Positions 57,442-63,445 of a stretch of DNA of 64,000 bases are shown here, in pieces (the first letter of the stretch is position 1; the number at the start of each line of letters is the position of its first letter). Both the position numbers and the translations under genes were made by a program. The notes beneath the pieces were generated by a model that did no database searches, was not told the DNA's origin, and saw only the letters and a program-made list of their open reading frames with translations. The DNA comes from Oscillospiraceae bacterium (GTDB lineage: Bacteria > Bacillota > Clostridia > Oscillospirales > Ruminococcaceae): the NCBI GenBank assembly GCA_050950205.1, contig JBMNHF010000004.1:19045-83044 (forward strand), in the 5' to 3' direction.

Positions 57442-57470
57442 TTGACTTTGCCAATACGGTGTGCTATACT
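57442..57470 (+). promoter_or_regulatory. sigmaA promoter about 470 nt upstream of speD
   Basis: TTGACT-17 bp-TATACT with TG extension. Confidence 0.75.
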
Positions 57471-57609
57471 ATCTTGACAGTATGGAAAACAGGGACAAAC
57501 AGCTTTCCATGCAAATATTTTTTTGACCACTTTCTTCTACCCAGGATCTTGAGAAGAAAGTCAAGGCCATGCGGACAGCCGGGTCAAATGCCGATTGGCA
57601 ATTGGTTGC

Positions 57610-57872
57610 CTTATTGATTGAGTTAAAAGCTCGAATTTTATAAGTTGGTTACTTATAACCAGTGTGCGCGGCACACCAAAACTTGTGAAACGGTCAATAA
57701 GAGTACTAAGAGTAAAAATGTTTGCTTGGATAGACTCTGAGATCCCGTGTCTGCATTTTGAATAAAAAAAAGCGGGTGCCTTTCTTTGCTCCGCTTTCGC
57801 AATAAAACAAAGTCAGGAAAACACAAGTAATGGTGCAGCGCCGCTGCATTATCCTTGTGTTTTTTTATTTTT
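57610..57872 (+). ncRNA. Structured speD leader (multi-stem junction plus intrinsic terminator), candidate riboswitch or attenuator
   Basis: Nested stems at 57610-57701; terminator AAAACACAAG/CTTGTGTTTT at 57818-57863 followed by a T-rich run. Confidence 0.55.
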
Positions 57873-57949
57873 CCGCGCTGCCCGCCCCCTACCTGTGGGT
57901 GCCGGCGAACCGGACTCTTATTTTTGCTGGAAAGGCAGGGTGGATGTTG

Positions 57950-58714
57950 ATGTCTGAGAAAACCAAACTTTACGGATTTAACAATCTGACCAAATCTCTA
58001 AGCTTTAATATCTACGATGTATGCTATGCCAAAACCGCCCGGGAGCAACTGGATTACATTGCTTATATTGACGAGCAGTACAATTCCGAGCGGTTGACCA
58101 ATATTCTTACCAATGTGACGGATATGATTGGAGCCAAGGTGCTCAACATTGCCCGGCAGGATTACGAGCCTCAGGGAGCCAGTGTCACCATTCTCATTGC
58201 CGAAGGGCCTTTGTTTCCCACTCCCCGCTCCGAAACCATTCTGGGCCATCTGGACAAAAGCCATGTCACCGTCCATACCTATCCCGAATACCATCCCGAA
58301 AACAGCATTGCCACCTTTCGGGTGGATATCGACGTGGCTACCTGTGGGGAAATTACTCCCCTTTCCACGCTGGATTATCTGATCGGCAGCTTTGATTCCG
58401 ACATCATCACCATGGATTACCGGGTGCGGGGCTTCACCAGGGATGTGGAGGGGCGCAAACTGTTTAACGACCACAAAATCACCTCCATTCAGAACTACAT
58501 CGACAAGGCCACGCTGCGCAAATACGATGCAGTGGATATCAATGTTTATCAGGCCAATCTCTTTCACACCAAGATGCTGATTAAGGAAATTGACCTGCAA
58601 AACTATCTGTTCAACGCCGATGTTTACGAGCTACCCCCCAAAGTGCGGCTGGAGATTCACGACAACCTGCGCCGGGAGATGATTGAAATTTTTTCGGGGC
58701 GGAATGTGTTCTAA
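57950..58714 (+). CDS. speD: S-adenosylmethionine decarboxylase proenzyme
   Basis: [31 protein letters not shown] self-cleavage site, DIDVATCG. Confidence 0.96.
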
Positions 58715-58759
58715 GCCGGTTAAAACAGCAGCTTTGAAAGGCACCCTCATCCCCTTTGG

Positions 58760-58788
58760 TTGACACTGCTCAAATTTAACGATATAAT
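58760..58788 (+). promoter_or_regulatory. Consensus sigmaA promoter of the met operon
   Basis: TTGACA-17 bp-TATAAT. Confidence 0.9.
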
Positions 58789-58834
58789 AATTTAATACCA
58801 TAAAGAAGCAGCTTGCAAAGCGGGGATTCGATTG

Positions 58835-58897
58835 ATGATAAGGCAAGTGAAAAGCGGCAAACGAATGCTCAACTCCCGGACACATTGGTGCGGGTGA
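58835..58897 (+). CDS. Putative 20-aa leader peptide MIRQVKSGKRMLNSRTHWCG
   Basis: GGGG RBS-like element upstream; overlaps the antiterminator 5' strand. Confidence 0.5.
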   Translation: MIRQVKSGKRMLNSRTHWCG

Positions 58898-59010
58898 TTT
58901 TGTCGTGCCTTGGTGGGCTTTTGGAGCCCGCTGCCATAGGTGTTGATATATAATCGCAGAAAATCCGCAGGTGTCCGGGAGTATGTTTTTATGCTCCGGG
59001 CACTTTTTTT
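58872..59010 (+). promoter_or_regulatory. Transcription attenuator (mutually exclusive antiterminator and terminator) upstream of metF
   Basis: ACTCCCGGACAC(58872-83) is perfectly complementary to GTGTCCGGGAGT(58971-82), which can alternatively pair with ATGCTCCGGGCAC(58991-59003) followed by T7. Confidence 0.8.
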
Positions 59011-59045
59011 ATGAAACGGCCCACAATTTGATTGAGGTGACAGAT

Positions 59046-59915
59046 ATGAAGCTGATTCAGGTGATAGAGGCGCCCAAACCCTCTCTCTCTTTCGAGATTT
59101 TTCCGCCCAAAAACAGCACCGCCTATGAGAGTATTCAAAAGGCGGCCGAAGCCATTGCCCAGCTTTCCCCCAGCTATATGAGCGTCACTTATGGAGCCGG
59201 CGGTGGCACCAGTGCCTATACCGTCTCCATCGCCGCAGATATCCAGAACAAATTCAACGTTCCGGTGATGGCCCACTTAAGCTGCATCAGCTCCACCCGG
59301 GAAGGAGTGCGGCACCAGCTGGACACCATGCGCCAAAGCGGCATCCAAAACGTATTGGCCCTGCGGGGGGATCTTGCACCCGGCACCTCTTTGGAGCCTC
59401 ATTGGGACTACCACTATGCCAGTGAGCTGGTGGAGGAAATCCGGGAGTATGGCGGCTTTTGCATTGGGGGCGCCTGCTATCCCGAAGGTCATATCGAATC
59501 TTCCAACCAGGCGGAGGATATCGCCAACCTGAAAAAGAAGGTGGAGGCGGGCTGCGAGTTTCTCACCACCCAAATGTTCTTTGACAACAACATCTACTAC
59601 AACTTCCTCTACAAAGTGCGGGAGGCCGGCATTCAAGTGCCGGTGGTGGCAGGTATTATGCCGGTGACCAATGTCAAGCAGATTGCCCGCATCACCGCCT
59701 TGTCCGGCACGGTGCTGCCCCAGCGGTTCCGCTATATTCTCGACCGCTTTGGCCACAACCCCGAGGCCATGAAGCAGGCGGGCATTGCCTACGCCACCGA
59801 ACAAATTGTAGACCTGTTTGCCAACGGGGTTCCGGCTGTTCATGTGTATTCCATGAACAACGCCTTTGTCGCCCAAAAAATTCAGGATAACCTTTCGGAA
59901 ATTATAAAGGCATGA
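59046..59915 (+). CDS. metF: 5,10-methylenetetrahydrofolate reductase
   Basis: SFEIFPPK, SVTYGAGG, LALRGD, GACYPEGH, TTQMFFDN. Confidence 0.96.
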   Translation: MKLIQVIEAPKPSLSFEIFPPKNSTAYESIQKAAEAIAQLSPSYMSVTYGAGGGTSAYTVSIAADIQNKFNVPVMAHLSCISSTREGVRHQLDTMRQSGIQNVLALRGDLAPGTSLEPHWDYHYASELVEEIREYGGFCIGGACYPEGHIESSNQAEDIANLKKKVEAGCEFLTTQMFFDNNIYYNFLYKVREAGIQVPVVAGIMPVTNVKQIARITALSGTVLPQRFRYILDRFGHNPEAMKQAGIAYATEQIVDLFANGVPAVHVYSMNNAFVAQKIQDNLSEIIKA

Positions 59916-60586
59916 GGAAGGCGGTCGAAGTCCTGGAGCTTTCGGCTCAGGAGGTGGAGATTCCCCTGTCTGCCGTCTACCGCTATCTGGGTATGGGAGT
60001 TAAGCAGCCGGACGAGGCCCTTGCGTCGCTGGCAAGGCAATGTGTGGACGAATTTAGCGAGATCGCCCGCTACCGAGCCTGTCGGCTGATCCTCCCTGTG
60101 GCGGTGGAGGGGGAAGGGGTGGACTTTGGCGCCTTTTCCCTTTTCAGCCGAAGCCTTTCCAAACATCTGGCCGGTTGCCATAAAGCCATTTTGTTTGCCG
60201 CCACCACCGGAGCCGAAGGGGAGCGGCTGCTCAGGCGGACCGCGGTCACCTCCCCCGCCAAAGCGGTGGTGTTGGACGCAGTGGGTACAGCGGCTATCGA
60301 GAGCTTCTGCGACGCCCTCTGCCGCCGGTGGGCAGAGGAGTTTGCGCCCCATTCTCTGCGCCCTCGCTTTAGTCCCGGCTACGGGGATCTGCCTTTGGAG
60401 CTGCAAAAAACCTTGCTGGCCTGTTTGGACAGCAGCCGCAAGGTGGGAATTACCCTGACCCAATCGCTGCTGATGATTCCCCAAAAATCGGTTTCCGCCA
60501 TGGTGGGGATAGGAGCCGGCGGCTGTGAGTCCAAATGGCATGACTGTACACTGTGTGACAAATCGGACTGTCCATTCCGAATGTAG
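59912..60586 (+). CDS. Stand-alone methionine synthase activation-domain-like protein
   Basis: RPRFSPGYGDLPL...GITLTQSLLMIPQKSVSA. Confidence 0.85.
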   Translation: MRKAVEVLELSAQEVEIPLSAVYRYLGMGVKQPDEALASLARQCVDEFSEIARYRACRLILPVAVEGEGVDFGAFSLFSRSLSKHLAGCHKAILFAATTGAEGERLLRRTAVTSPAKAVVLDAVGTAAIESFCDALCRRWAEEFAPHSLRPRFSPGYGDLPLELQKTLLACLDSSRKVGITLTQSLLMIPQKSVSAMVGIGAGGCESKWHDCTLCDKSDCPFRM

Positions 60587-60589
60587 GAG

Positions 60590-63004
60590 ATGCCTATGAA
60601 CGTTTTGGATTGTGTAAAAGAGGGAATTTTTTATCTGGACGGAGGCACCGGCACCCTGTTGCAGGAGCGGGGCCTTGCCCCCGGCGAACTACCGGAGCTG
60701 TGGAATCTCACCCGCCCGGAGGAAATCATCGCCATCGGGAAAGCCTACTATCAAGCGGGGAGTCATGCCGTCTGCACCAACACCTTCGGGGCAAACGCCC
60801 TGAAGTTTGACGGCAAGGAGGGCCGCCCCACCGTAGAAGAGGTGGTGTTTGCTGCGGTGGACTGCCTTAAACAAGCCCGGGAAGCCGCCGAGGGTGGGCA
60901 GACTCACAAATTCATCGCCTTGGATGTGGGGCCTTTGGGCCGGCTTTTCGCCCCCATGGGGGATCTTCCCTTTGAGGAAGGGGTGGAGCTGTTTGCCCAA
61001 GTTATTAGGGCAGGAGTCAAGGCCGGAGTGGACCTCATCCTCATCGAAACCATGAACGACAGCTACGAAACCAAAGCGGCGGTGCTCGCCGCCAAAGAAA
61101 ACTCTAGCCTTCCGGTGTTTGTCAGCAATGTCTACGACGAGGGCGGCCAGCTGATGAGCGGCGCCAGCCCCGAGGCCATGGTGGCCATGCTGGAGGGGTT
61201 GGGGGCAGATGTCATCGGCCTCAACTGCTCCTTGGGGCCCCGGCAGATGCTGGAGCTGCTGCCCCGGTTTACCGCCTGCTCTTCCACACCTTTGCTGGTT
61301 AAACCCAACGCCGGCCTTCCCCGGTCGGAAGGGGGCAGAACGATCTTTGATATCAGCCCAGCGGAGTTTGTGCAAATCATGTCTGAAATGGTGCAGCAGG
61401 GGGCCCGTGTGGTGGGGGGCTGCTGCGGCACCACACCGGAGTATATCCAAGGCTTAGTGACCGCTACCACTGGCCTTGCTCCGGTGGAGGTGACTCCAAA
61501 GCGTCGCAGCGTCATCAGCTCCTACACCCATGCGGTGACCTTTGGGGATGCGCCCATCCTCATCGGCGAGCGGATTAACCCCACCGGCAAAAAGCGGTTT
61601 CAGAAAGCGCTGCGCAGCAGGGACATCGGCTATGTGTTAAAAGAGGGCCTTGCCCAGCAGGAGCAGGGAGTTCAGGTGCTGGATGTCAACGTGGGGCTTC
61701 CGGAACTGGACGAGCCGGCTCTGCTGGCCGACTGTGTCCGGGAGCTGCAGGGGGTTTGCAACCTGCCCCTGCAGCTGGACACCTCCAACCCCGCCGCCAT
61801 GGAGCGGGCCATGCGGATTTACAACGGCAAGCCCATGGTCAACTCGGTGAGCGGCAGCGCCGAAAGCATGGACGCCATCTTCCCGCTGGTGAAAAAATAC
61901 GGCGGCTTGGTGGTCTGCCTGACCCTGGACGAACAGGGCATTCCCGAAACGGCGCAGGGCCGCCTTGCCGTTGCCAAGCGAATTGCTCAGCGGGCGGCGG
62001 AGTACGGCATCGACATCCACGATTTAATCTTCGACCCGCTGGCCCTCACCATCTCCTCCGATTCCAAAGCGGCACAGGTGACGCTGGACACCATCCCCCT
62101 CATTCGCCGGGAACTGGGAGCTCGCTGCTCCCTGGGGGTGTCCAACATTTCCTTTGGGCTGCCTCACCGGGATTTTATCACCGCCACCTTCTTCACCATG
62201 GCTCTGGCCAAGGGGCTGGACGCCGCCATCATCAACCCCTACTCCACCGAGATGATGAAGGCTTATCACAGCTATCTGGCTTTGGCAGGACTGGATCCCA
62301 ACTGCAGCTCTTATATTCACTTTGCCCAGAATCTGACGGTGCAAACTGCCAGTACCGCCGCTTCTACCTCGGTCCTGCGTCCTTTGGTGGGCGAGGGGTT
62401 GCAGGGCGCCATCATTCGGGGATTGCAGCAAGAAGCGGCGCGGCTCGCTCGGGAGGCTCTTGCCACCGCAGAGCCCCTTGCCCTCATCAACGAGGAGATT
62501 GTGCCGGCACTGGATGTGGTAGGCCAAGGGTTTGAAAACAAGACGGTGTTTTTGCCCCAACTGCTCATGAGCGCCGAGGCCGCCAAAGCCGCCTTTGAGG
62601 AGGTTCGCCGGGCCATGCCCACCGCCGAAGGTTCGGGGCCTTTGGTGGTGCTGGCCACCGTTAAGGGGGATATTCACGATATCGGCAAGAACATTGTCAA
62701 GGCGCTGTTGGAAAATTACGGCTACCGGGTCCTCGACCTTGGGCGGGATGTGCCGGCCCAGAGGGTGGTGCAGGCAACGATAGAGCAAAGCGCCCGGCTG
62801 GTGGGACTCAGCGCTTTGATGACCACCACCGTCCCTTCCATGGCGGAAACCATCGCTCTGCTGCGAAGGGAATGCCCCGACTGCAAGGTGGTGGTGGGAG
62901 GCGCCGTTCTAACCCAGGAATACGCCGATCAAATCGGCGCCGACCAGTATGCCAAAAATGCCATGGAAACGGTGCGTTATGCCGGAAAGGTTTTTTCCCG
63001 GTAG
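60590..63004 (+). CDS. metH: Cobalamin-dependent methionine synthase core (homocysteine-, folate- and B12-binding domains)
   Basis: LDGGTGT, GLNCSLG, GGCCGTT, IGERINPTG, VKGDIHDIGKN, GLSALMT. Confidence 0.95.
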   Translation: MPMNVLDCVKEGIFYLDGGTGTLLQERGLAPGELPELWNLTRPEEIIAIGKAYYQAGSHAVCTNTFGANALKFDGKEGRPTVEEVVFAAVDCLKQAREAAEGGQTHKFIALDVGPLGRLFAPMGDLPFEEGVELFAQVIRAGVKAGVDLILIETMNDSYETKAAVLAAKENSSLPVFVSNVYDEGGQLMSGASPEAMVAMLEGLGADVIGLNCSLGPRQMLELLPRFTACSSTPLLVKPNAGLPRSEGGRTIFDISPAEFVQIMSEMVQQGARVVGGCCGTTPEYIQGLVTATTGLAPVEVTPKRRSVISSYTHAVTFGDAPILIGERINPTGKKRFQKALRSRDIGYVLKEGLAQQEQGVQVLDVNVGLPELDEPALLADCVRELQGVCNLPLQLDTSNPAAMERAMRIYNGKPMVNSVSGSAESMDAIFPLVKKYGGLVVCLTLDEQGIPETAQGRLAVAKRIAQRAAEYGIDIHDLIFDPLALTISSDSKAAQVTLDTIPLIRRELGARCSLGVSNISFGLPHRDFITATFFTMALAKGLDAAIINPYSTEMMKAYHSYLALAGLDPNCSSYIHFAQNLTVQTASTAASTSVLRPLVGEGLQGAIIRGLQQEAARLAREALATAEPLALINEEIVPALDVVGQGFENKTVFLPQLLMSAEAAKAAFEEVRRAMPTAEGSGPLVVLATVKGDIHDIGKNIVKALLENYGYRVLDLGRDVPAQRVVQATIEQSARLVGLSALMTTTVPSMAETIALLRRECPDCKVVVGGAVLTQEYADQIGADQYAKNAMETVRYAGKVFSR

Positions 63005-63167: not shown

Positions 63168-63335
63168 AGTTCGTAGGAAAATGACTGCGGTCTGCCGAAG
63201 GAGTAACACTCTCAGGCGCTCGAGGGTTCGGGCAAAGACTATGAATGGATGTGGCTCTGGAGAATCCCGTCAATCGGGTGCCGAAGGTGCAAGACGCGAT
63301 TAGCTCGCGTTAATCTCTCAGGCAAAAGGACAGAG
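63168..63335 (+). ncRNA. Tandem glycine riboswitch
   Basis: Two aptamers each with CCGAAGG...CTCTCAGG; CTCTGGAGA and CAGGCAAAAGGACAGAG in aptamer 2. Confidence 0.95.
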
Positions 63336-63445
63336 TTGGAAAAGGTATTGGGGCCTTTGGGCCCTTGTTCCTTTGTTTCTGGAGCCAAATCATGATTTGC
63401 ATGGTTTGGTTTTTTTATTTGTCGGAAGGAAGGGAATGTTGTTAC

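What the first reader, a model, noticed from the sequence alone, without database searches (positions are those of the whole stretch)
58760..59045. Leader-peptide attenuator controlling metF-metH instead of an S-box or T-box
Seen: a consensus promoter; a 20-codon uORF (MIRQVKSGKRMLNSRTHWCG, Met at 1 and 11, Trp-Cys near the end); and a perfect 12-bp antiterminator whose 5' strand lies in codons 13-17 and competes with a T7 terminator. Known: Firmicute met genes are typically controlled by SAM-I riboswitches or Met T-boxes, and neither signature is visible. Inference: a ribosome reaching the stop covers the antiterminator strand (termination), while stalling at Met11, failed fMet initiation or a nascent-peptide arrest permits read-through. 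That would be a translation-coupled sensor of methionine or one-carbon status.
Basis: partly seen in the sequence, partly recalled or inferred. Interest (0 to 1): 0.65.

Follow-up and report, generated by a model that had tools for sequence, protein, structure and literature searches.

The report
Methionine leader-peptide attenuator before metF-metH
The stretch ahead of the methionine-synthesis genes metF-metH holds a tiny translated gene overlapping a switchable stop signal; it belongs to a widespread, apparently undescribed Clostridia family that most likely lets the ribosome itself report methionine (and cysteine) shortage.

Summary
There is a 12/12 consensus promoter, a 20-codon uORF (58835-58897), a perfect 12-bp antiterminator (58872-83 / 58971-82) and a competing terminator with T7. 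No Rfam family matches, even at E<=10.

Covariance-model searches found 50 homologous leaders, in about 7% of sampled genomes of the order and in other Clostridia families. Every one precedes a sulfur-amino-acid gene: metF-metH, metY, metN, MetQ-like or SsuA-like binding proteins, an amino-acid permease, or cysK. All carry a Shine-Dalgarno site and an open uORF in one frame. The core is [Cys/Met-rich]-Arg(CGA)-Met-x-x-Ser-Arg-Thr/Ala, and its Ser-Arg-Thr codons form the antiterminator 5' strand. The helix covaries. The peptide up to the Met codon is under amino-acid-level selection, whereas what follows is conserved only as RNA. CGA is a minor codon, read only by I:A wobble in this genome, yet it is used in 48 of 49 leaders. 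The cysK leader swaps Arg-Met for Cys-Cys-Cys.

Best reading: ribosome-mediated transcription attenuation that senses Met-tRNA supply at CGA-AUG, a functional analogue of a Met T-box. Its stop-codon detail holds only for this genus. This is a new variant of a known kind, and it has not been tested experimentally.

The parts
58760..58788 (+). sigma-A type promoter: TTGACA, 17-nt spacer, TATAAT
   Evidence: 12/12 match. The -35 and -10 boxes are conserved in the same-genus leaders L002, L003 and L004.
58822..58826 (+). weak Shine-Dalgarno-like GGGGA, 8 nt before the uORF start
   Evidence: Sequence. Relatives mostly have AGGAGG at the same place.
58835..58897 (+). leader-peptide uORF, 20 codons plus TGA: MIRQVKSGKRMLNSRTHWCG
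   Evidence: The homologous uORF is open in the same frame in 50/50 leaders, while the other two frames carry stops in 48/50 and 38/50.
58862..58867 (+). CGA-AUG (Arg10-Met11), the proposed sensing codons
   Evidence: CGA is used in 48 of 49 leaders and AUG in 49 of 50, with an invariant 5-nt spacing to CUCCCGG. CGA makes up 8% of Arg codons in this genome. Only tRNA-Arg ACG, CCG and CCT genes were found.
58872..58883 (+). antiterminator 5' strand ACUCCCGGACAC (codons 13-17)
   Evidence: The helix is 96.5% paired with 4 compensatory pairs across 49 sequences.
58884..58970 (+). domain enclosed by the antiterminator. Its sequence varies between relatives. It includes the conserved CGGG (58891-94) and the unexplained conserved AUUUUGUCGUGCC (58897-58909).
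   Evidence: Alignments A2, A3 and A5. No conserved aptamer-like core was seen. GGG is conserved as nucleotides.
58971..58982 (+). shared strand GUGUCCGGGAGU: antiterminator 3' strand and terminator 5' arm
58991..59010 (+). terminator 3' arm (58991-59003) plus U7 tract (59004-59010)
   Evidence: -21.8 kcal/mol. An equivalent hairpin followed by a U run appears in 47 of 50 relatives; the other three have a weaker U tract.
59046..59915 (+). metF, methylenetetrahydrofolate reductase (first regulated gene)
   Evidence: Pfam PF02219, 1.3e-83. TIGR00676 above its cut-off.
59912..63004 (+). split methionine synthase: activation-domain protein (59912-60586) and MetH core (60590-63004)
   Evidence: Pfam PF02965, and PF02574, PF00809, PF02607 and PF02310. 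TIGR02082 partial match.

Best explanation
This is a ribosome-mediated (leader-peptide) transcription attenuator of the methionine regulon. It belongs to a conserved family found in Oscillospirales and other Clostridia.

Transcription starts at the consensus promoter, and a ribosome loads on the 20-codon uORF. The 12-bp antiterminator (58872-83 / 58971-82) is far more stable than the terminator, so it wins whenever its 5' strand is free.

When Met-tRNA(Met) is plentiful, the ribosome runs through codons 13-17 to the UGA stop. It then occupies the 5' strand and the start of the enclosed domain while RNA polymerase makes the shared strand. The shared strand pairs with 58991-59003 instead, and transcription ends at the U7 tract before metF.

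When Met-tRNA is scarce, the ribosome waits with AUG-11 in the A site and the wobble-decoded CGA in the P site. Its leading edge then stops about 11 nt from the first P-site base, just short of the 5' strand. The antiterminator forms and metF-metH is transcribed. The same happens if no ribosome initiates at all.

In relatives, extra Cys and Met codons just before CGA-AUG add cysteine sensing. In one subfamily a conserved nascent peptide probably sharpens the pause.

Shown here: the anatomy, its conservation, the translation signature, helix covariation and the gene associations. Inferred: that stalling occurs, where it occurs, and that termination responds to methionine.
For: (1) Anatomy.

(2) Homologues: 50 leaders found with models R1 and R2. 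In the order-level sample, 28 of 401 genomes hold a verified copy. Eight further genomes lie in two families outside the order.

(3) Gene association: every leader precedes a sulfur-amino-acid gene. The counts are metF-metH 7, metY 19, metN 9, binding proteins 8, amino-acid ABC permease 4, cysK 2 and a PLP enzyme 1. Several genomes hold 2-3 copies.

(4) Translation signature: a Shine-Dalgarno site, mostly AGGAGG, and an open frame in 50/50 leaders. These lie outside the part of the sequence the search model was built on. In the 15-member subfamily, pairwise differences at codon positions 1/2/3 are 0.27/0.11/0.62. Synonymous to non-synonymous codon differences are 500:160 in frame, against 48:906 and 64:881 in the shifted frames.

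(5) Where selection changes: the amino-acid-level signal stops at the Met/Leu codon. From codon +7 on there is no coding signature, and GGG is kept as nucleotides. This is what a pause at Arg-Met predicts.

(6) The CGA codon: used in 48/49 leaders, although it is 8% of Arg codons here and other Arg positions in the same uORFs vary freely. No tRNA-Arg(UCG) gene is in the assembly.

(7) Sensing codons: positions -5 to -1 hold 49 Cys and 18 Met among 200 residues, against 1.4% and 2.2% in the proteome. Codon content tracks the regulated gene: metF-metH leaders have the fewest Cys, and the cysK leader L013 has Met-Cys-Cys-Cys and no Arg-Met.

(8) Helix covariation: 96.5% paired, 4 compensatory pairs, 0/500 shuffles reach the observed score. 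CGG changes to CGA together with its partner in L064, L070 and L071.

(9) The uORF always ends 14-79 nt before the shared strand.

(10) The only S-box in this genome is on metK, so a Met-tRNA sensor would add information that SAM sensing does not give.
Against: There is no experimental evidence. The metatranscriptome contigs are too sparse to show a 3' end at the U tract.

This window's own leader has a single internal Met codon, no Cys codon upstream of it and a weak Shine-Dalgarno site. One hungry codon is a thin sensor.

Classical attenuators do not need a conserved peptide. The strong amino-acid-level selection on xFxxLLRSNFRCG in one subfamily is therefore not explained by codon hunger alone.

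A classical 1:2 'anti-antiterminator' hairpin is not statistically supported. The best pairing scores 5.96 pairs against 5.81 in shuffles, and the MFE z-score is -0.86. RNAalifold gives no consensus structure.

In most relatives the stop codon lies well beyond the 5' strand, so how a fully translating ribosome keeps the antiterminator from forming is inferred.

In Bacillus, RNA polymerase outruns the ribosome (recalled from the literature, not checked here). If that also holds in these Clostridia, the mechanism would need a pause site, and I did not identify one.

The searches were seeded with the conserved core, so some of the apparent invariance comes from how the set was collected. However, a single change in CGA would not have dropped hits scoring 28-110 bits.
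Confidence: 0.58

Rival explanations
1. Metabolite-sensing arrest peptide. The nascent leader peptide, sitting in the exit tunnel, together with a small molecule (free Met, SAM, SAH or homocysteine), arrests the ribosome on the uORF. The arrested ribosome then decides between antiterminator and terminator, in the manner of TnaC, SpeFL or plant CGS1. Met-tRNA supply is not the signal.
For: There is amino-acid-level purifying selection on a roughly 17-residue N-terminal peptide (xFxxLLRSNFRCGRM). The start-to-Arg distance is nearly fixed at 14-16 codons across families. The invariant CGA-AUG could be the arrest site.
Against: Two of the three subfamilies, including this window's, have unconserved N-termini. 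Cys and Met codons vary with the regulated gene, and the cysK leader drops Arg-Met for Cys-Cys-Cys. That is the hallmark of codon-hunger sensing. The geometry also argues against it. A pause at Arg-Met frees the antiterminator and turns the genes on, so the ligand would have to accumulate when Met is scarce. No peptide-level conservation follows the Met codon.
Confidence: 0.22
2. An RNA-only switch. The leader would be a riboswitch, or a protein- or tRNA-binding RNA, whose ligand stabilises or blocks the 12-bp helix. The uORF would be incidental, or would merely tune expression.
For: The helix encloses a structured 87-nt domain. The nucleotides GGG and UUUGUCGUGC are conserved as RNA, and the latter is read in different frames in different leaders. 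The long helix covaries.
Against: The enclosed domain varies in length (about 60-120 nt), sequence and fold between relatives, and has no conserved junction or loop nucleotides. There is no Rfam match. All conserved sequence lies inside the uORF. The Shine-Dalgarno site, start codon, frame and coding signature are conserved in 50/50 leaders. No T-box specifier or UGGN bulge is present.
Confidence: 0.08
3. The uORF and terminator are real, but the termination they cause is constitutive and not specific to methionine. They would act as a general translation or growth-rate gauge, or the small peptide would act in trans.
For: This window's leader has only one internal Met codon. The conserved peptide in relatives might have a function of its own. 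A precedent is peTrpL, which I saw only as title and abstract in the search results.
Against: The association with Met/Cys genes is exclusive across 50 loci and several orders. The AUG sits at a fixed distance from the helix. Cys and Met are enriched next to it.
Confidence: 0.07

Closest known systems
Classical leader-peptide attenuators (trpL, hisL, thrL, leuL, pheL, ilvL of Proteobacteria; Rfam leader families such as Trp, His, Thr, Leu leaders)
   Same: They share a promoter-proximal Shine-Dalgarno site and short ORF, cognate codons placed just before an antiterminator strand, and a mutually exclusive antiterminator and intrinsic terminator ahead of the biosynthetic operon.
   Different: Here the amino acid is methionine, with or without cysteine, and I found no described case of that. 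There is a single invariant sense codon preceded by an invariant rare CGA, instead of a run of codons. One subfamily has a conserved nascent peptide. There is no supported 1:2 hairpin. The antiterminator closes a roughly 90-nt domain that the uORF runs into. The host is Clostridia. No sequence match to any Rfam family was found.
Cysteine-codon uORF attenuators: uORFC-8-2 upstream of cysS in Rhodobacterales (PMC8632094) and polycysteine leaderless sORFs of mycobacteria (bioRxiv 10.1101/834739)
   Same: These are sulfur-amino-acid codons in a short uORF ahead of sulfur-metabolism genes. For uORFC-8-2 the cited paper describes an intrinsic terminator and proposes Cys-tRNA sensing. For the mycobacterial sORFs I saw only the title and abstract, which call them cysteine-responsive attenuators.
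   Different: They come from different lineages with unrelated sequences. They are Cys only, with no invariant Arg(CGA)-Met.
S-box (SAM-I, RF00162) riboswitch and methionine T-box (RF00230)
   Same: They control the same regulon in Firmicutes (metF/metH, metY, metNIQ, cysK) and give the same output, a premature intrinsic terminator set against an antiterminator. The Met T-box also reads Met-tRNA charging.
   Different: There is no aptamer, specifier loop or T-box sequence, and cmscan finds nothing at E<=10. Here the ribosome is the sensor. The genome keeps one S-box on metK and 11 T-boxes elsewhere.
Arrest peptides that sense metabolites: TnaC (Trp), SpeFL (ornithine), Arabidopsis CGS1 MTO1 region (SAM). 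Named from memory, as leads only.
   Same: Each is a short conserved nascent peptide whose ribosome stalling sets expression of downstream metabolic genes. CGS1 concerns methionine biosynthesis.
   Different: No sequence similarity was tested or claimed. Those systems act through Rho, translation or mRNA decay rather than through an antiterminator/terminator pair. Here the peptide is conserved in only one subfamily.
Histidine leader peptides upstream of hisS/hisZ in Bacilli (PMC2965389)
   Same: This is a precedent that regular leader-peptide attenuation exists in Firmicutes and replaces T-boxes there.
   Different: It uses a run of His codons, regulates different genes and has an unrelated sequence.

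Membership tests
SAM-I / S-box riboswitch (RF00162) | Four-way-junction aptamer matching the Rfam covariance model | tested here: not met
   cmscan of 58700-59080 against all 4227 families at E<=10 returns only a chance miRNA hit. The same model does find the metK S-box elsewhere in this genome at 82.8 bits.
T-box leader (RF00230) | Stem I with specifier loop, plus the T-box sequence and a UGGN bulge in the antiterminator | tested here: not met
   There is no match at E<=10. The antiterminator is a perfect 12-bp helix without a bulge. The model finds 11 T-boxes elsewhere in the genome.
Ribosome-mediated (leader-peptide) transcription attenuator | Short ORF with ribosome-binding site at the 5' end of the leader, conserved as a coding sequence | tested here: met
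   A Shine-Dalgarno site and start codon are present, and the frame is open in 50/50 leaders. Third-position variability and a synonymous excess appear only in this frame.
Ribosome-mediated (leader-peptide) transcription attenuator | Codons for the end-product amino acid placed so that a stalled ribosome frees the antiterminator | tested here: met
   AUG is invariant 7 nt before the helix, with no indels in the 49 leaders that keep it. Cys and Met are enriched at positions -5 to -1. Codon content follows gene class. The number of codons is low: one in this window.
Ribosome-mediated (leader-peptide) transcription attenuator | Mutually exclusive antiterminator and intrinsic terminator sharing one strand | tested here: met
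   Searches show this for the window. One search shows helix covariation and one search shows terminators in relatives.
Ribosome-mediated (leader-peptide) transcription attenuator | Pause or anti-antiterminator (1:2) hairpin that enforces termination without stalling | tested here: inconclusive
   A local CCCGG/CCGGG hairpin is often predicted but scores no better than shuffles. RNAalifold gives no consensus.
Ribosome-mediated (leader-peptide) transcription attenuator | Read-through rises on starvation for the amino acid and depends on uORF translation | not testable with these tools
   This needs reporters, Term-seq or in-vitro coupled assays. The available RNA contigs are uninformative.
Metabolite-sensing arrest peptide (TnaC / SpeFL type) | Nascent peptide sequence conserved at the amino-acid level up to the arrest site | tested here: inconclusive
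   This is met in the 15-member xFxxLLRSNFRCGRM subfamily. It is not met in this window's subfamily or in the Met/Cys-rich subfamily.
Metabolite-sensing arrest peptide (TnaC / SpeFL type) | Ligand-dependent ribosome stalling | not testable with these tools
   This requires toeprinting or structural work.

The most novel reading that the evidence does not exclude
The family may be a new kind of single-codon amino-acid sensor. An invariant I:A-wobble-decoded CGA in the P site would make acceptance of Met-tRNA at one AUG rate-limiting, helped in many members by a conserved roughly 17-residue nascent chain in the exit tunnel. That would turn a single Met codon into a sharp gauge of Met-tRNA. Alternatively, the nascent chain binds a methionine-cycle metabolite directly. 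That would make it the first bacterial methionine- or SAM-responsive arrest peptide, a counterpart of plant CGS1.
Probability: 0.25. Interest if true: 0.85.

Novelty: new variant of a known kind. Interest (0 to 1): 0.7.

Why it matters
Methionine and cysteine genes in Firmicutes are textbook examples of control by riboswitches (S-box) and T-boxes. Leader-peptide attenuation is regarded as mainly a proteobacterial and actinobacterial device, and I found no description of one specific for methionine. Methionine is an awkward case, because every ORF also starts with it.

This family shows that a large group of gut, rumen and digester Clostridia uses the ribosome itself to read sulfur-amino-acid supply. 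It covers about 7% of sampled Oscillospirales genomes, with several copies per genome, plus another Clostridia lineage.

The family gives annotators a missing regulon marker and some 50 unannotated small ORFs. Its invariant CGA-AUG pair and conserved nascent peptide make a concrete, testable case of codon context and nascent chain sharpening a one-codon sensor.

Tried and rejected
- **Rfam.** I searched at gathering score over the whole window and at E<=10 over the leader. Nothing relevant turned up, so S-box, T-box, SAM-II to SAM-VI, SAH, THF and the other curated families are rejected.
- **Riboswitch reading.** Rejected because the enclosed domain is not conserved.
- **Classical 1:2 anti-antiterminator hairpin** (CGAAUG..CCCGG pairing with CCGGG..CGUUCG). 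It is predicted in many sequences but is no better than shuffles and has no RNAalifold consensus. I kept it only as a tentative element.
- **Transcript evidence.** The organism occurs in digester, bioreactor and poultry-litter metagenomes. The few RNA-run contigs cannot show a terminated 3' end.
- **Replacement of an S-box in same-genus genomes that lack the leader.** Their MetF is only 41-44% identical and no Rfam element lies upstream, so this was uninformative.
- **Peptide search in 5.8 billion proteins.** It returned only 3 unnamed hits, so the uORFs are essentially unannotated and carry no name to check.
- **Pattern scan of species genomes.** Of the 23 hits, 14 were chance matches in high-GC genomes. 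Two hits I first dismissed because of their taxon labels (L018, L025) proved to be true leaders.
- **Covariance-model hits that were plain terminator hairpins or other chance matches.** L039, L041-L048, L050, L051, L080, L081 and L091-L093 were discarded by eye.
- **Literature.** Four full-text searches and four papers gave Cys-codon uORFs, His leaders in Bacilli and an fthC uORF, but no methionine leader peptide.

Full report
**Observation.**
- Promoter: TTGACA, 17-nt spacer, TATAAT at 58760-58788. It scores 12/12, the only perfect match in the 2 kb scanned.
- uORF: ATG 58835 to TGA 58897, encoding MIRQVKSGKRMLNSRTHWCG.
- Antiterminator: one inverted repeat in the leader, 58872-58883 ACTCCCGGACAC and 58971-58982 GTGTCCGGGAGT, 12 nt and 100% complementary. 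Its 5' arm is codons 13-17.
- Terminator: a hairpin that reuses the 3' arm (5' arm 58970-85, 3' arm 58991-59003), followed by T7 at 59004-10.

The minimum-energy fold of the whole leader forms the 12-bp helix around a structured 87-nt domain. This state has -56 kcal/mol, against -22 for the terminator. If only the RNA from 58872 onward is free, the helix still forms. If the 5' arm is masked, the terminator forms.

No Rfam family reaches its gathering score in the leader. At E<=10 only a chance miRNA match appears. The downstream genes are metF, a separate MetH activation-domain protein and the MetH core.

**Relatives.**
A DNA search of 60 relatives found the leader in three same-genus genomes and one other genus. 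By eye, all of these kept an ORF in the same frame.

A pattern scan of one genome per species gave true hits only in Clostridia-type genomes, including the cultured Ligaoa zhengdingensis NSJ-31. Two of the true hits carry Terriglobales and Acidoferrum labels (see "Noticed in passing").

I built a covariance model from 7 sequences (R1) and a second from 15 (R2). Each contains only the 3' part of the uORF, the enclosed domain and the helix. Searches gave the following.
- R1 found real copies in 10 further genomes among 401 of the window's family.
- R2 hit 30 of 401 genomes sampled across the order, of which 28 held up on inspection. They span at least 8 families.
- R2 also hit 8 genomes in two families outside the order but within the class.

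Hits that were plain terminator hairpins were discarded by eye. The working set is 50 leaders. Several genomes hold two or three.

**What the leaders have in common.**
- Terminator: in 47 of 50 leaders a hairpin plus a U run follows the shared strand. The other three have a weaker U tract.
- Helix: on the model-based alignment it is 96.5% paired. Four of its 11 pairs show compensatory changes (28 cells), and no shuffle out of 500 reaches the observed covariation. In L064, L070 and L071, CGG became CGA in the 5' strand and the partner changed with it.
- Enclosed domain: it is not conserved in length, sequence or predicted fold. This argues against an aptamer.
- uORF: upstream of the modelled region, and so not selected for by the searches, every leader has a Shine-Dalgarno site (mostly AGGAGG) and a start codon in frame with the core.
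- Frame: the uORF frame is open in 50/50. The other two frames contain stops in 48/50 and 38/50.
- Core: [Cys/Met-rich]-Arg-Met-(Leu/Phe)-x-Ser-Arg-(Thr/Ala). The spacing CGAAUG-N5-CUCCCGG never has an indel in the 49 leaders that keep the pair.
- Start-to-Arg distance: 14-16 codons in most leaders, 8-9 in this window's metF subtype.

**Coding versus RNA constraint.**
In the 15-member subfamily with xFxxLLRSNFRCG-RM, pairwise differences at codon positions 1/2/3 of codons -9 to -1 are 0.27/0.11/0.62. Synonymous to non-synonymous codon differences are 500:160. Over codons -12 to -1 the in-frame ratio is 531:380, against 48:906 and 64:881 in the two shifted frames. Arg and Ser switch between the CGN/AGR and AGY/UCN codon families. 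That peptide is therefore translated and under purifying selection.

The signal ends at the Met(-Leu) codon. From codon +7 onward there is no third-position excess (221:1799, like the shifted frames), and GGG is kept as nucleotides in 27 of 30 leaders.

The Arg codon just before Met is CGA in 48 of 49 leaders. Arg at two other uORF positions uses five and six different codons. CGA makes up 8% of Arg codons in this genome's long ORFs. The assembly encodes tRNA-Arg ACG, CCG and CCT but no UCG, so CGA must be read by I:A wobble. This last step is an inference, and the assembly is 96.5% complete.

**Gene association.**
The first downstream genes are as follows.

| Downstream gene | Leaders |
|---|---|
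| metF(-metH) | 7 |
| metY / homocysteine synthase | 19 |
| metN | 9 |
| lipoprotein binding proteins (two tested are SsuA-like; the rest MetQ-like by N-terminus only) | 8 |
| amino-acid ABC permease | 4 |
| cysK | 2 |
| PLP enzyme of the cystathionine family (by N-terminus only) | 1 |

Nothing outside sulfur-amino-acid metabolism was found.

Positions -5 to -1 hold 49 Cys and 18 Met among 200 residues in the 40 leaders tabulated, against 1.4% and 2.2% in the proteome. The codon content follows the gene class.
- Five of seven metF-metH leaders have no Cys there.
- Transporter and metY leaders have MCC, MMCC or MCCC.
- The cysK leader L013 has Met-Cys-Cys-Cys and has lost Arg-Met altogether.

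The sample is small and phylogenetically confounded. Even so, it is the pattern expected of codon-hunger sensing.

This genome's single S-box sits on metK. It also has 11 T-boxes elsewhere.

**Mechanism.**
Shown here: a translated uORF overlaps the 5' strand of a dominant antiterminator that competes with a terminator.

Inferred: a ribosome that translates through codons 13-17 occupies that strand and then the start of the enclosed domain while the shared strand emerges, so the terminator forms.

A ribosome waiting for Met-tRNA has AUG in the A site and CGA in the P site. The first paired base of the helix (58872) is then the 11th nucleotide from the first P-site base (58862). From my memory of Takyar, Hickerson and Noller 2005, that is where the ribosomal helicase acts. 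The whole 5' strand would therefore stay just outside the ribosome and the antiterminator would form.

Failure to initiate would also give read-through, because the antiterminator is the default fold.

It does not hold in most relatives, where the stop lies 37-61 nt beyond. In all of them the uORF ends 14-79 nt before the shared strand. So the general rule seems to be a ribosome inside the domain, with the shared strand left free.

A local hairpin that could act as an anti-antiterminator is often predicted but is not statistically supported.

**Open points.**
- The amino-acid-level conservation of the N-terminal peptide in one subfamily is not needed by a plain hungry-codon model. Together with the invariant CGA, it suggests that the nascent chain and the wobble pair slow acceptance of Met-tRNA, so that one codon suffices. 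It could instead mean that a metabolite is sensed in the tunnel.
- The change from peptide-level to RNA-level constraint exactly at the Met codon places any pause at Arg-Met. Because a pause there frees the antiterminator, a signal that rises on methionine shortage is favoured. That signal is most simply uncharged tRNA-Met.
- A conserved AUUUUGUCGUGCC (58897-58909) is read in different frames in different leaders. It remains unexplained.

**Comparison with known systems and novelty.**
The mechanism class, leader-peptide attenuation, is textbook. It is not a member of any Rfam family, and gene callers almost never call its uORFs (3 unnamed hits among 5.8 billion proteins).

The papers I found describe:
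- Cys-codon uORFs before cysS in Rhodobacterales (PMC8632094);
- Cys leader peptides in Actinobacteria (PMC1262725);
- mycobacterial polycysteine sORFs (title and abstract only);
- His leaders in Bacilli (PMC2965389);
- an fthC uORF suspected of sensing initiator tRNA (PMC11109978).

None describes a methionine leader peptide.

Earlier notes of this scan describe what appears to be the same family before metY in another genome, and unrelated Met/Cys leaders in a Flavobacterium and one further genome. These are unchecked AI notes, not evidence.

I rate this a new variant of a known kind. It is well supported by comparative data but experimentally untested.

Noticed in passing
window 57524-57594 (+), upstream of the AdoMet-decarboxylase-like gene 57830-58714: There is an Rfam match to RF02440 (SpF59 / ldcC RNA) at 67 bits, against a gathering score of 37.2. 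An earlier first-reader note (e1-5137338) flags 57442-57949 as a candidate new riboswitch. At least part of that leader is this already-curated motif.
   Followed up: no
window 63247-63343 (+): A glycine riboswitch aptamer (RF00504, 64.9 bits) lies directly upstream of a sodium:alanine symporter family gene that starts at 63365.
   Followed up: no
G000:C7:303008-303109 (-), locus L082: The only SAM-I riboswitch in this genome lies upstream of metK (SAM synthetase). SAM sensing and the leader-peptide sensor therefore divide the methionine genes between them.
   Followed up: partly
L038, L063, L066, L068, L069, L084-L090: about 60-100 nt upstream of the uORF start: Many family members share a nearly identical promoter region, CCTATTGACATAGTAGGT(A/G)AAT. 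The sequence of the spacer between -35 and -10 is conserved across families. This may be the binding site of a DNA-binding regulator acting on the same regulon. It is absent from this window's promoter.
   Followed up: no
window 58897-58909 and the equivalent place in L002-L005, L027, L057, L013, L065: AUUUUGUCGUGCC just after the GGG is almost invariant in the metF-type leaders. It is read in different frames, or lies after the stop codon, so the constraint is at the RNA or DNA level. I found no consistent pairing partner. It could be a pause site.
   Followed up: partly
L063, L068, L084-L087, L089, L090, L095 (uORF 3' ends): In the Met/Cys-rich subfamily the uORF ends in a conserved ...R-L-x(3-5)-R-C-stop, within the nucleotide motif CGCCU(C/U)...CGAUGUUGA. 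This is a second conserved block inside the antiterminator domain.
   Followed up: no
L018 (DATMXT010000320.1) and L025 (DATMZG010000078.1): These contigs are titled Terriglobales bacterium and Candidatus Acidoferrum sp. They are the same contigs as G684:C320 and G499:C78, which the genome tool places in the window's order of Clostridia. They carry a typical metF leader, so the public taxon labels look wrong.
   Followed up: partly
window 59912-60586 and 60590-63004: The methionine synthase is split.
   Followed up: partly
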